64,000 nucleotides of DNA from the NCBI GenBank assembly GCA_964016885.1, contig OZ024749.1, positions 35,092,001 to 35,156,000 on the forward strand, written 5' to 3'. This stretch comes from Eledone cirrhosa (taxonomy: Eukaryota). The notes beneath the pieces are model-generated. The model was not told the origin of the DNA. It did no database searches and saw nothing but the letters and a program-made list of their open reading frames with translations. A program made the position numbers and the translations under genes. How positions within the stretch are numbered: the first letter of the stretch is position 1; every line of letters starts with the position of its first letter. This document shows positions 34,401-52,400 of this stretch, in pieces.

Positions 34401-37400
34401 GAGCAAGACAATCACTCTTGCCTCAAGTGGGAAAACCCCCGTCCAAACCCATGCAAGCGTGGAACACGGACGTTAAACGTTGATGATGATGATGATGATA
34501 TATATATATACAATATAAAGAGTGGTGTACTCGGGCTTAGAGATGTTATAAAATAGGATGAAGAACCTTAGAGATGGAAAAAGAAGTTGCCATTGGTTAC
34601 TACAAGCAACTTTTCCATCTCAAAGGGTTTTCATCCTATTTTATAACATCTCTGTGCATGAGCCACTCTTTATTATTAATTAACCTTCTACCTTCAGCCC
34701 TTCATAAAAGTTTGAGACAGCGGCTACATCATCATCATCGTTTAATGTCTATCTTCCACGCTAGCATATGTATATATATTATGTCTCTAATCTAACAAGA
34801 ATATATATATAGTCATTGTGTATAACTAAATGTGTTTCTATGAGATTGTACATATATTTATCTTGCAGAGATGTATGTAAACATTTCTCGTTTGTTTGTC
34901 ATTTTCACAAAATGATGTATCATAACTTGCATTTATATAATTTCATCTTGGTTTTATTATCATCATTCTTAACATTATCAACATAGTCCAGAAATGACAC
35001 CATTGCCAATATTGTTATTGCCATCATTATTAAAATCATTACCATATTTTGTCTGGGCATGGCTGATTGGTTAAGAAGTTTGCTTCACAACCATATGATC
35101 TAGGGTTCTATCCTGCATGGTACCTTGGGCAATTGCCTTCTGCTTTTGTGTTTCTTCCAATTAGAACCCTGTTTTTATTTTGTTTTTCCATTTTCTTTCA
35201 GGTTTATCCAAAACCAGAATTCTTGAAACTGCTTCAGTCTGTTGGTGCCAAAGGAAAAGCTTTTACTATTGCTGAGGTAATTCTTTATTTAAACCTTTCA
35301 TCACTATATTTCTAATGAAAAACACTTCAAATGATTTTTAAAATAAAGAATTTAGATTCCTCTTAAACCCAGTTTCTCTGTCAGCTCATCCAAGTGCTGC
35401 CTTTCTCCTGGTGAATATATTATAATTCATAATAACTTTAGTAAACATAACTACACCCTAACTCTTATTAGTTCTACATGTTTTCTCCAGTTAAATAAAA
35501 CTGAACCTATGACATAAATATTATTATTATTATTACTGTAACTTGAACCAGTTTAATTCTCAACATTCTGGAAAGATTTTAGCTGAAAATGTCTAAAAAC
35601 GTGTTTGTTAATTCAGATTATTATAGTATCTTTACTAGTGGACAGATCACTGAAAATTTGTTTTAATGTGATGCAGTTATAAATGCTGTTTTGTAGTTTC
35701 AAGAATGTCTTGCTTATGCAGTTTCATGTTAAGAATTGATGTGGACATGTTTTTGCAAGTGAAAATTATTGAGAGAATAATTTGTTTTTGTTTTTCAGAT
35801 CATTCGTTATTTGAAGAATTATATATCGTCCCATATGTTGTACGATCCTCAGAAGCCGTGGTTGGTTCATTGCAGTAACGATAAATTGGGCAAAGTGTTT
35901 CGTCGCAATCATTTCACCATTGTTGATGTCAGGTGAGACAGTTAACAAAGGCTACAAAGCATTGTGCCTCCGTCTTCCATGCTGCACTGTGCCACTTCCC
36001 TTTATAATGTACTGTCGCCCTCTTTACATTCTTAGATTCAGTATATAGCTGGAACAGCAGCAGTGGTCTGAGACCAGTTGAGTTTCTCTAGTAGTAATAG
36101 TAGTACTAATAGTGATGATGGTCGGTATTAGAAGGTACACCAATGTGCATTAAAGTGAAATATATATATATATATATATATATATATATCTCTTATGTTA
36201 GTGTGAAGTAATTATGTATAAATCTATAAGTAAGTACACACACACACACTGACAAAGAGACGCAGGTTAACAGTAATAGGATACTGATCAAGGAGACAAG
36301 ATGTGTGGCAAGATGATACATTAAACATGTTTGACTGGCTTCAAGGAAGTAATATGCTTGCCTACATCAATGTCCACCACCATTGTGTAACATACAAGGA
36401 GTTTACTAGACTGAATCCTTTTCTTGAAGGACAGTCCATAGGTAACTATGTTTTATTTTTTCCTCTCCACCTTTTAGATTTTCTTTAACTCTTATTCTTT
36501 AATTCGATATCATCATTATTATTATACTATGTTGAATGTTACAGTTTAGATATCTTTGAATTTAATTAATTAATTAAAAAGATAATGGATAATGCATCAT
36601 TCATTCTCATTTGATATTTTGTGTAAAATATAAGTTTGCTTAATATTGATATAACTATATTATGTGTTACTGTTTTATCTAAGACTAATTGTTTATTGTA
36701 AACAAAAATCTGAACATGTATAATGCTACATAAATCTTGTCAGCTACTGTTCACTACTTTCATATATTTCTAACCTTGCTTTAAAATATGTTTTACTATT
36801 GAGAACATTACAGGTCTAAACAATTGAAGAATTGCAATTTCGAACTAGTGTCACTTTCGGCTAAAGTACAATGTACAATTAGAAATAGACATGCCACCAG
36901 GGTTTTAGAATATGTCACTGTATCCCTGCATGTTGTAAGAAGTGACTCAAAAGGTTGGCACCATGAAGAGCATAAAGCTGTTGAACACTGGCTCAAAAAT
37001 ATCCTATGAAAAAGCAGACATAAAAACGATCATAATACACACAACACACACATACATGCGCACGTGTGAAGGGAACAATTGAGCAAGTGTGCCCTTCCCT
37101 GCCTATTCTCTCTTGGACCATGCCATTCTTTCCTACCCATGCTAGCAAAGAAAACATGTTAGATGATGTATATTTTAGAGTTGTTCTTGTCTTTTAAGTG
37201 ACTTGATTTGAGAGAGTGTGTTGAACTGGAGCGATTATGTCATGAAAGAGACATTTTAGCCGTTTAGAAAGATACAGCAAATTTTACTTTACATTTATCA
37301 TCTATTTCCTGGTGTCAACATTTTCATCACACTTCTTACAACCTAATCATTGATACAGTTTCACTACAACTAATTTAGTTATGAAAATGTAAATTATGAT

Positions 37401-49400: not shown

Positions 49401-52400
49401 GGTCAGTACAACTGTCACACCACACCACACTGTATCTCACCTGTCTGGTCAGTACAACTGTCACACCACACTACACTGTATCTCACCTGTCTGGTCAGTA
49501 CAACTGTCACACTACACTACACTGTATCACACCTGTCTGGTCAGTACAACTGTCACACCACACTACACTGAATCTCACCTGTCTGGTCAGTACAACTGCC
49601 ACACCACACTACACTGTATCTCACCTGTCTGGTCAGTACAACTGTCACACTACACTACACTGTATCTCACCTGTCTGGTTAGTACGACTGCCATAACACA
49701 CCACACTACACTGTATCTCACCTGTCTGGTCAGTACAACTGCCACACCACACTACACTGTATCTCACCTGTCTGGTCAGTACAACTGTCACACCACACTA
49801 CACTGTATCTCACCTGTCTGGTCAGTACAACTGCCACACCACACCACACTATCTCACCTGTCTGGTCAGTACAACTGTCACACCACACTACACTGTATCT
49901 CACCTGTCTGGTCAGTACAACTGCCACACCACACTGTATCTCACCTGTCTGGTCAGTACAACTGTCACACTACACTACACTGTATCACACCTGTCTGGTC
50001 AGTACAACTGCCACACCACACTACACTGTATCTCACCTGTCTGGTCAGTACAACTGCCACACCACACTACACTGTATCTCACCTGTCTGGTCAGTACAAC
50101 TGCCACACCACACCACACTGTATCTCACCTGTCTGGTCAGTACAACTGCCACACCACACCACACTGTATCTCACCTGTCTGGTCAGTACAACTGCCACAC
50201 CACACTACACTGTATCTCACCTGTCTGGTCAGTACAACTGCCACACCACACCACACTGTATCTCACCTGTCTGGTCAGTACAACTGTCACACCACACTAC
50301 ACTGTATCTCACCTGACTGGTCAGTACAACTGTCACACCACACTACACTGTATCTCACCTGTCTGGTCAGTACAACTGCCACACCACACTACACTGTATC
50401 TCACCTGTCTGGTCAGTACAACTGCCACACCACACTACACTGTATCTCACCTGTCTGGTCAGTACAACTGCCACACCACACTACACTGTATCTCACCTGT
50501 CTGGTCAGTACAACTGCCACACCACACTACACTGTATCTCACCTGTCTGGTCAGTACAACTGCCACACCACACTACACTGTATCTCACCTGTCTGGTCAG
50601 TACAACTGCCACACTACACTGTATCTCACCTGTCTGGTCAGTACAACTGCCACACCACACTACACTGTATCTCACCTGTCTGGTCAGTACAACTGTCACA
50701 CCACACTACACTGTATCTCACCTGTCTGGTCAGTACAACTGTCACACCACACTACACTGTATCTCACCTGTCTGGTCAGTACAACTGTCACACCACACTA
50801 CACTGTATCGCACCTGTCTGGTCAGTACAACTGTCACACCACACTACACTGTATCTCACCTGTCTGGTCAGTACAACTGTCACACCACACTACACTGTAT
50901 CTCACCTGTCTGGTCAGTACAACTGTCACACCACACTACACTGTATCTCACCTGTCTGGTCAGTACAACTGTCACACCACACTACACTGTATCTCACCTG
51001 TCTGGTCAGTACAACTGTCACACCACACTACACTGTATCTCACCTGACTGGTCAGTACAACTGTCACACCACACTACACTGTATCTCACCTGTCTGGTCA
51101 GTACGACTGCCACACCACACTACACTGCATCTCACCTGTCTGGTCAGTACAACTGTCACACCACACTACACTGTATCTCACCTGTCTGGTCAGTACAACT
51201 GTCACACCACACTACACTGTATCTCACCTGTCTGGTCAGTACAACTGCCACACCACACTACACTGTATCTCACCTGACTGGTCAGTACAACTGCCACACC
51301 ACACTACACTGTATCTCACCTGTCTGGTCAGTACAACTGTCACACTACACTACACTGTATCTCACCTGTCTGGTCAGTACAACTGTCACACTACACTACA
51401 CTGTATCTCACCTGTCTGGTCAGTACAACTGCCACACCACACTACACTGTATCTCATCTGGTCAGTACGACTGCCATAACACACTACACTGTATCTCACC
51501 TGACTGGTCAGTACAACTGCCACACCACACTACACTGTATCTCACCTGTCTGGTCAGTACGACTGCCATAACACACTACACTGTATCTCACCTGTCTGGT
51601 CAGTACGACTGCCATAACACACTACACTGTATCTCACCTGTCTGGTCAGTACCACTGCCACACCACACTACACTGTATCTCACCTGTCTGGTTAGTAAAC
51701 CTGGCACAAAGTAGTGTTCAGGTACAGAATAATGCTGTGCTATGTCTACATATTTACCTTAATGATGTATCGTGTTGCCTGTTTTAAATACCTTAATACG
51801 TTGTGTTACCTGGTCTACATTAACACGCCATTTATTGTTATTTAGATCTCTTATTGCCAAATATGGAGTTCAAAGTCCAGAATACCGTCCCAAACTGACC
51901 CGAAGACTCAACACTGAAGAGGTGAGTATAATATTGACTATATTCTTACCTGTTGACAAAAGTCTGCAACACCCAACTTGTTTATAGATTTATTATTCTA
52001 GCGCTGTGTCCTCTGAGTTCAAATCCCAGCACCTTTCATTCGTCTTGGGTCAATAAATAAAATCCCAGCCCTAGATCGGAGGACTGACAATTGTTAAAAC
52101 GTTGAATGGGATACTTTGTGGTTTTGAGTGTTCCGACTTCAAATCCCACCTCCTTTTCTCAGGAATTGTCACTGGCGGATAGTATCAGCAATGGAAACAT
52201 TGCTTTCTTGGACTAATTTGAGGAATAGCTCTTTTATTTATTTATTTATTTTTTTGTTTTCAATATATTCTTGCATAAAAGACTTATCACTATGTGATAT
52301 TGTTATATCCTGTCAACATTTCGGTAATTGATATTGAGAAATGAAATGAAATTTACTGCTCACTGATATGAAGGTTTAGCTGGTCTTCTAAGAGGAGTCT

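What the first reader, a model, noticed from the sequence alone, without database searches (positions are those of the whole stretch)
35202..51921. MDM2/MDM4-family gene with a tandemly duplicated p53-binding (SWIB) domain
Seen: two three-exon modules (35202-38284 and 43194-51921), each with a 75-nt exon, a 134-nt phase-2 exon and a phase-2-to-0 exon, joined in one open frame by three short acidic/Ser-rich exons and upstream of a single acidic region, zinc finger and RING. Hand alignment gives 36/70 (about 51%) identity over the first two exons, with no stops and intact splice sites, so this looks like an old retained duplication, not an assembly echo. Known: MDM2, MDM4 and the invertebrate MDM proteins I know of carry one N-terminal p53-binding domain. 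Inference: a bivalent MDM could bind two transactivation domains of a p53/p63/p73 tetramer with avidity, or bind two different partners. I am not aware of this architecture being described but cannot search for it.
Basis: partly seen in the sequence, partly recalled or inferred. Interest (0 to 1): 0.9.

Follow-up and report, generated by a model that had tools for sequence, protein, structure and literature searches.

The report
Cephalopod MDM2 with two SWIB domains
This octopus's only MDM2-type gene, whose relatives in other animals switch off p53, encodes two intact copies of the p53-docking (SWIB) domain instead of one, a layout shared with other octopuses and a cuttlefish, and the two copies likely act as unequal docking sites.

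Summary
Confirmed. The window holds the genome's single MDM gene: 17 coding exons, one open frame of 684 aa, with two SWIB domains, one acidic region, one zinc finger and one C2H2C4 RING. The copies are 36/69 identical with saturated synonymous sites. Spliced contigs of one run join the last exon of module A through the three linker exons to the first exon of module B. Octopus vulgaris/sinensis, O. bimaculoides and a cuttlefish have both domains; the named chiton, snail, scallop, horseshoe-crab and hemichordate proteins have one. Both copies are conserved (69% and 65% octopus to cuttlefish) and are predicted to fold well. Copy B diverged faster and has a remodelled cleft (F54, W62, P97), so unequal roles are likelier than simple avidity. 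Binding is untested. New here: 16 other MDM-like proteins, one of them from the copepod Caligus, also carry two SWIB domains, probably from a separate duplication. No paper describing a germline double-SWIB MDM was found; the only precedent found is a somatic MDM4 rearrangement in a glioblastoma model. New variant of a known family.

The parts
10320..10407 (+). coding part of first exon (long-isoform ATG at 10320)
   Evidence: 27/29 identical to the N-terminus of O. vulgaris Mdm2 X1; GT donor
23862..23905 (+). exon 2, holds the second Met (residue 35), the start of the shorter public isoform X2
33797..34009 (+). exon 3, Ser/Thr-rich N-terminal region with internal 66-nt repeats
   Evidence: exact 216-nt piece of a 1326-nt contig in run X1; TRF
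35202..35276 (+). SWIB-A exon 1 (75 nt)
   Evidence: GT..AG joint to the next exon in X1
35799..35932 (+). SWIB-A exon 2 (134 nt), carries the cleft helix
38224..38284 (+). SWIB-A exon 3 (61 nt)
   Evidence: joint to 39728 in X1
39728..39749 (+). linker micro-exon (22 nt, acidic)
   Evidence: joints on both sides in X1
41250..41305 (+). linker exon 2 (56 nt)
41631..41705 (+). linker exon 3 (75 nt), first copy of the ITSST motif; likely part of the duplicated block
43194..43268 (+). SWIB-B exon 1 (75 nt)
   Evidence: joint from 41705 in X1
43762..43895 (+). SWIB-B exon 2 (134 nt), carries F54, W62, P97
44107..51708 (.). intronic minisatellite, 46-nt unit, about 164 copies, inside SWIB-B's second intron
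51846..51921 (+). SWIB-B exon 3 (76 nt)
   Evidence: 73% identical to the O. vulgaris model
53136..53271 (+). post-B exon, second copy of the ITSST motif
53801..53895 (+). Ser/Thr-rich exon before the acidic region
54616..54720 (+). acidic region exon 1
55529..55621 (+). acidic region exon 2
56760..57332 (+). last coding exon: C4 zinc finger, C2H2C4 RING, stop
   Evidence: Pfam zf-C3HC4_3 E 2e-12; aligns to human MDM2; only such RING match in the genome

Best explanation
This is the animal's single MDM gene, and it encodes two folded-type SWIB domains in one spliced frame that likely work as two unequal docking sites on one p53-family ubiquitin ligase. Shown: a block of about 141 residues (three SWIB exons plus the stretch to an ITSST motif) is present twice in octopuses and a cuttlefish, and both copies are conserved. 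Inferred: the duplication happened on the cephalopod line before octopods and cuttlefish split. Copy A changed little and likely keeps the ancestral weak grip on the FxxxWxxL helix of the p53/p63 transactivation domain. Copy B changed fast and was then held fixed with bulkier cleft residues, so it likely binds with different specificity or strength (another partner, another p53-family segment, or the same helix in another pose). The single acidic region, zinc finger and RING then likely ubiquitinate what is docked, as in other MDM proteins.
For: Single gene: two SWIB-exon matches and one RING match in the genome, all at this locus. Spliced joints A1>A2, A3>L1, L1>L2, L2>L3, L3>B1 with GT..AG ends in run X1; the last four share one depth figure, 46.9, so probably one contig. 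Both domains are in O. vulgaris/sinensis, O. bimaculoides and Acanthosepion pharaonis proteins. Octopus-to-cuttlefish identity: A 55/80, B 52/80, against N-terminus 10/78, linker 30/61, post-B 39/86. AlphaFold2 on P0001 gives both domains the same SWIB pattern with block pLDDT 88-97 and a linker under 50; the model matches MDM2 structures. Trp at human position 73 is in 8 of 8 cephalopod domains and 0 of 83 single-domain relatives. An ITSST-like motif occurs once after the SWIB in Gigantopelta and Pecten and twice in cephalopods, 140 residues apart. Asymmetry: stem branch A 0.22 vs B 0.66 and 0.33 vs 0.91. F54, W62 and P97 are in all 4 B copies and no A copy, and in 3, 1 and 3 of 83 single domains. 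This genome's p53-family gene has an FxxxWxxL motif in its first coding exon.
Against: No binding data exist for either domain. Both copies have Lys at Gly58; the mussel domain with L54C/G58K/M62G/V93F binds its own p53 motif at only KD 15 uM by polarisation, unconfirmed by ITC (PMC10303687, passages and Discussion part 1 read), so even A may bind poorly. Which copy binds better is a guess: W62 could as well restore hydrophobic cover that the mussel lost. The 80-column trees do not show A and B as sisters (AU p 0.395: not rejected, not shown). The A2>A3, B1>B2 and B2>B3 joints were not seen in this species' run (38188-38225 was skipped as a repeat; the second call ended at 43330; the first call's list was cut); they rest on the orthologues' gene models. 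The RNA evidence is one run of unrecorded kind, as contigs.
Confidence: 0.5

Rival explanations
1. Symmetric avidity: both SWIB domains bind the same FxxxWxxL helix on two subunits of the p53/p63 tetramer, making up for the weak Lys58-type molluscan pocket.
For: Both copies keep L57, I/V61, F86, F91 and an aromatic at 67. The roughly 60-residue linker is predicted disordered and is long enough to span two transactivation tails. The mussel single domain is weak, and its authors ask how such affinity is compatible with function (PMC10303687). A somatic double-SWIB MDM4 was proposed, not tested, to give greater p53 interaction (bioRxiv 10.64898/2025.12.24.696443, passages).
Against: B has a three times longer stem and fixed bulky cleft residues, which pure avidity does not need. 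From general knowledge, MDM proteins dimerise through the RING and so are already bivalent. Other molluscs manage with one weak domain.
Confidence: 0.27
2. Neither domain mainly serves p53: the protostome SWIB has another ligand, and the duplication doubled or split that role, while p53-family control runs through the acidic region and RING or is lost.
For: K58 is in 41 of 83 single-domain relatives. No binding was detected for the tick and Trichoplax pairs (PMC10303687). A second double-SWIB clade includes a copepod, while PMC5543598 reports crustacean p53 without a transactivation domain.
Against: Cephalopod p53-family proteins keep FxxxWxxL, though that motif also serves co-activators. Mussel binding is weak but measurable, and pull-down support is cited for molluscs. 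Copepod p53 was not checked here.
Confidence: 0.17
3. The modules are alternatives: splicing or an internal start yields proteins with only A or only B, and the two-domain form is minor.
For: Phases allow in-frame skipping of A plus linker (0 to 0). X1 also holds low-depth contigs across the A2-A3 intron.
Against: The joints seen run straight from A3 to B1, and no skipping joint was listed (whose stretch lacked exon 3, so it could not show exon 3>B1). All 5 full-length Octopus models read (of 7 cluster members; the other 2 are fragments) carry both domains.
Confidence: 0.06

Closest known systems
Vertebrate MDM2 / MDM4 and single invertebrate MDM (Mytilus, Trichoplax, Ixodes)
   Same: Domain order SWIB, acidic, C4 zinc finger, C2H2C4 RING; SWIB fold matches MDM2 structures at about 40% identity. 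The 75- and 134-nt exon sizes match human MDM2 (recalled, no call).
   Different: Two SWIB domains; G58K and a three-residue shorter last helix as in many protostomes; W73 found only in the cephalopod copies of this set.
Public gene models: O. sinensis XP_029648076.1, O. vulgaris CAI9736801.1, O. bimaculoides XP_052830783.1, Acanthosepion pharaonis MDM2
   Same: Orthologues with both domains and matching exon junctions; 558 and 554 of 684 residues identical.
   Different: Annotated simply as Mdm2; the duplication is not named. The cuttlefish model lacks the RING and ends in low-complexity sequence, probably a model error.
pdup-MDM4 on ecDNA in a glioblastoma model (bioRxiv 10.64898/2025.12.24.696443; passages read)
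   Same: In-frame tandem duplication of the SWIB exons giving a double-SWIB MDM (616 vs 490 aa).
   Different: Somatic, recent (so presumably near-identical copies), one tumour model, effect only proposed; here germline, ancient, diverged and conserved.
Second double-SWIB MDM clade including the copepod Caligus rogercresseyi (found here)
   Same: Two SWIB domains ahead of a RING in one protein.
   Different: At most 40% identical to the cephalopod domains; its two domains group together apart from the cephalopod ones (98/90; 92/81 in the smaller tree), so probably a separate duplication, though AU tests do not reject a shared origin (p 0.32 and 0.12).

Membership tests
MDM2/MDM4 family | N-terminal SWIB/MDM2 (p53-binding type) domain | tested here: met
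   Pfam PF02201 on both exon frames and two stretches in the orthologue; fold match. Present twice.
MDM2/MDM4 family | Central acidic region | tested here: met
   Aligns to human MDM2 238-300; 49/72 identical octopus to cuttlefish.
MDM2/MDM4 family | C4 (RanBP2-type) zinc finger | tested here: met
   Four Cys align to the human finger; Pfam PF00641 weak, E 0.014, under cut-off.
MDM2/MDM4 family | C-terminal C2H2C4 RING | tested here: met
   All eight ligands in the translation, as defined in PMC6372010 section 5 part 1; best solved-structure match is human MDM2, E 3e-38.
MDM2/MDM4 family | Canonical vertebrate cleft residues (L54, G58, M62, H73, H96) | tested here: not met
   A has I54 K58 S62 W73 V96; B has F54 K58 W62 W73 V96. 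Many single-domain invertebrate MDMs also depart, so this lowers 'high-affinity p53 binder', not family membership.
MDM2/MDM4 family | Binds the p53-family transactivation helix | not testable with these tools
   Ligand motif exists in this genome; binding needs experiment.
MDM2/MDM4 family | E3 ligase activity on p53-family protein | not testable with these tools
   RING intact; activity inferred from placozoan and lamprey MDM (PMC6372010).
MDM2/MDM4 family | p53-responsive internal promoter (feedback loop) | tested here: inconclusive
   2 consensus-like sites (27284, 42673) vs shuffle mean 0.53, with 2 of 30 shuffles reaching 2.
MDM2 or MDM4 paralogue specifically | Derived from the vertebrate duplication | tested here: not met
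   Single-copy gene; cephalopod domains fall outside the vertebrate-like clade. It is an invertebrate MDM, co-orthologous to both.

The most novel reading that the evidence does not exclude
Doubling the SWIB domain is a recurrent evolutionary route for retuning the MDM-p53 switch: it was fixed independently in coleoid cephalopods and in a copepod-containing clade and recurs somatically in human glioblastoma, and in cephalopods it turns a weak molluscan pocket into a two-site clamp on the p53/p63 tetramer, with the second site specialised.
Probability: 0.3. Interest if true: 0.82.

Novelty: new variant of a known kind. Interest (0 to 1): 0.64.

Why it matters
The reviews read describe MDM proteins as four-domain proteins with one p53-binding domain (PMC5543598, PMC6372010). 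A germline two-domain form kept across octopuses and cuttlefish breaks that picture. It bears on a stated open question: how invertebrate MDM can control p53 when its pocket binds weakly or not at all (PMC10303687). The tandem is a natural experiment: A alone, B alone and A-B can be measured against monomeric and tetrameric ligand. It also offers a long-evolved model for the double-SWIB MDM4 seen in a tumour, and the copepod proteins contradict the report that crustacean MDM lacks this domain.

Tried and rejected
Assembly echo or recent duplication: rejected (synonymous saturation, unrelated introns, orthologues). Two separate genes: rejected (spliced joints from A3 to B1; no stop; one RING). 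Pseudo-exons: rejected (conservation). Complex prediction of domain B (P0001 250-340) with the O. sinensis p63 N-terminus (1-45): no verdict, score 0.17 against a mark of 0.34, alignments not used, controls not folded; it says nothing either way, and domain A was not tried (one job). The look-up of sequencing runs listed no holder on record as RNA; X1 was taken as RNA only because its contigs skip the predicted introns at GT..AG. One search was swamped by repeats (340 joints not shown). Contig depths (11.1 vs 46.9) were not used as expression levels. The Pfam P53_TAD search of the genome gave only chance hits, and my FxxLW pattern missed the motif; it was found with the O. sinensis sequence. 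Single-sequence fold of the double-SWIB protein P0136 failed (pLDDT 37), so the second clade rests on HMM hits: 16 of 16 have two hits at E<1e-3 with a profile seeded only on cephalopod and snail domains, while Pfam at E 0.01 shows two passing stretches in 1 of 16, one in 10 and none in 5. ESM Atlas gave only SWIB clusters under 0.9. AU tests left both the A+B sister relation and independence from the second clade formally open. No squid, Nautilus or vampire squid MDM was recognised among named hits; most representatives are unnamed (20 looked up), so this is not absence. No divergence date was obtained (one search returned mostly references). Literature: 8 searches found no paper on a germline double-SWIB MDM; supplements of PMC5543598 (8 files) and PMC10303687 (8 files) have no hit for octopus, bimaculoides, Sepia, Caligus or Lepeophtheirus (figures held as pictures are not searchable). 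Subscription journals are mostly not covered and the bioRxiv supplement was not seen. Earlier-findings look-ups returned nothing.
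Full report
Observation. The window lies on contig C9 of a 3.0-Gb genome. Two further 5' exons give a 684-residue protein, 558 residues identical to the Octopus vulgaris model, which places the animal among octopods. The first two exons of A and B share 36 of 69 residues; synonymous sites are saturated (pS 0.945) while pN is 0.30, and the introns are unrelated. 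The genome search finds two SWIB-exon matches and one MDM-type RING, all here (counts are lower bounds).

One transcript. No run was listed as RNA, but contigs of run X1 skip five predicted introns at GT..AG: A1>A2 on a contig of depth 11.1, and A3>L1>L2>L3>B1 each at depth 46.9. The depth-11.1 contig (1326 nt) holds exon 3 with exactly 209 nt beyond it, the sum of A1 and A2. The A2>A3 joint fell in a skipped repeat and B1>B2>B3 were not seen. Those junctions are present in the Octopus gene models.

Range. O. vulgaris/sinensis, O. bimaculoides and the cuttlefish Acanthosepion pharaonis have both domains. Of the 150 best representatives of 1115 hits in the 50%-cluster library, 106 carry a SWIB by my profile and 17 carry two; one of the single-domain rows (P0015) is a fragment of the O. 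bimaculoides gene. Named single-domain proteins are a chiton, two gastropods, a scallop, a horseshoe crab and a hemichordate. Trp73 is in 8 of 8 cephalopod domains and 0 of 83 single ones, and an ITSST-like motif that follows the SWIB once in Gigantopelta and Pecten occurs twice in cephalopods, 140 residues apart, matching the 141-residue spacing of the domains. I infer a tandem duplication of SWIB plus downstream motif on the cephalopod line, before the octopod-cuttlefish split (a few hundred million years; recalled). Trees of 80 columns give A and B each as a well-supported clade but do not resolve them as sisters. Nautilus and squid are untested.

Both copies are kept, but unequal. Octopus-to-cuttlefish identity is 55/80 for A and 52/80 for B, above the linker (30/61) and N-terminus (10/78). 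AlphaFold2 folds both with high confidence and leaves the linker disordered, pTM 0.32; the model matches MDM2 crystal structures. B's stem branch is about three times A's. With human numbering, A has I54 K58 S62 V75 R97 and B has F54 K58 W62 F/C75 P97. K58 is common in single-domain relatives (41 of 83). The mussel domain, with C54 K58 G62 F93, binds its own p53 motif at 15 uM (PMC10303687; passages, Discussion part 1 and supplement rows seen). The ligand motif is retained: this genome's p53-family gene has FxxxWxxL in its first coding exon, as do O. sinensis, Argonauta and cuttlefish.

Mechanism. Best reading (0.5): two unequal docking sites on one ligase, A near the ancestral weak p53-family site, B re-specialised. 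Rivals: symmetric avidity on the tetramer (0.27); a non-p53 ligand for both (0.17); alternative single-module isoforms (0.06). The architecture, splicing of A3 to B1, conservation and asymmetry are shown; every binding step is inferred.

A second clade. Sixteen non-cephalopod representatives also have two SWIB hits plus a RING. Twelve were looked up and one has a taxon, the copepod Caligus rogercresseyi; the rest come from unnamed 2-4 kb contigs. Their two domains form clades that group with each other, apart from the cephalopod ones, and are at most 40% identical to them. Independent origin is the simplest reading given single domains in the intervening named taxa, but AU tests do not reject a shared origin. 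PMC5543598 (parts 1-2 of 6 read) states that crustacean MDM lacks this domain and crustacean p53 lacks the transactivation domain; the first statement does not hold for Caligus, and the second, if true there, would point to a non-p53 ligand.

Known or new. The protein is a member of the MDM family on all sequence features tested except the vertebrate cleft residues. The two-domain form is in public gene models without comment. Eight literature searches and two supplement searches found no description of a germline double-SWIB MDM. PMC6372010 (passages and section 5 part 1) lists four domains. The one precedent is a somatic MDM4 with duplicated SWIB on ecDNA in a glioblastoma model (bioRxiv 10.64898/2025.12.24.696443, passages). 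Other papers were seen only as listings, apart from passages of PMC13076209, which gave nothing used here.

Verdict. Real, spliced, old and conserved; a new variant of a known kind; interest 0.64. It would surprise p53-MDM specialists and makes their affinity question testable, but function is unproven.

Noticed in passing
P0077, P0079, P0084, P0095, P0107, P0113, P0122, P0123, P0126, P0128, P0131, P0133, P0136, P0141, P0153, P0157: A second group of MDM-like proteins with two SWIB domains; P0122 is from the copepod Caligus rogercresseyi, the others are unnamed. Probably an independent duplication; conflicts with the report that crustacean MDM lacks the domain.
   Followed up: partly
window 41631-41705 and 53136-53271: Conserved ITSST motif after each SWIB domain, also in Gigantopelta and Pecten MDM; it fits the SPOP-binding consensus (recalled), which would be a possible degron.
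   Followed up: partly
window 44107-51708: 7.6-kb minisatellite (46-nt unit, about 164 copies, 93% matches) in the intron between SWIB-B exons 2 and 3; gives long spurious open frames.
   Followed up: no
window 10320-10407: The 29-codon first coding stretch is 27/29 identical to O. vulgaris, more than the next two exons (about 63-67%); a conserved N-terminal extension or regulatory 5' element ahead of the second Met.
   Followed up: no
window 33839-33967: Internal 66-nt repeat in exon 3 gives three similar Ser/Thr-rich units in octopuses; absent from the cuttlefish model, which has its own repeats after domain B.
   Followed up: no
window 31514-32326: Broken open frames that look like the end of a LINE-type reverse transcriptase in the intron before exon 3 (seen; family recalled, not searched).
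   Followed up: no
window 35933-38223: Run X1 holds low-depth contigs across much of the A2-A3 intron, compatible with slow or partial splicing of this intron; contigs cannot quantify it.
   Followed up: no
L018 (G000:C3:46105203-46105295) and L017: First two coding exons of the genome's p53/p63 gene, about 38 kb upstream of the DNA-binding exons; motif FxxxWxxL with Phe at the position before Trp.
   Followed up: partly
P0010: A Biomphalaria glabrata model of 1186 aa repeats the acidic-zinc finger-RING block three times with near-identical sequence; likely an assembly or annotation artefact.
   Followed up: no
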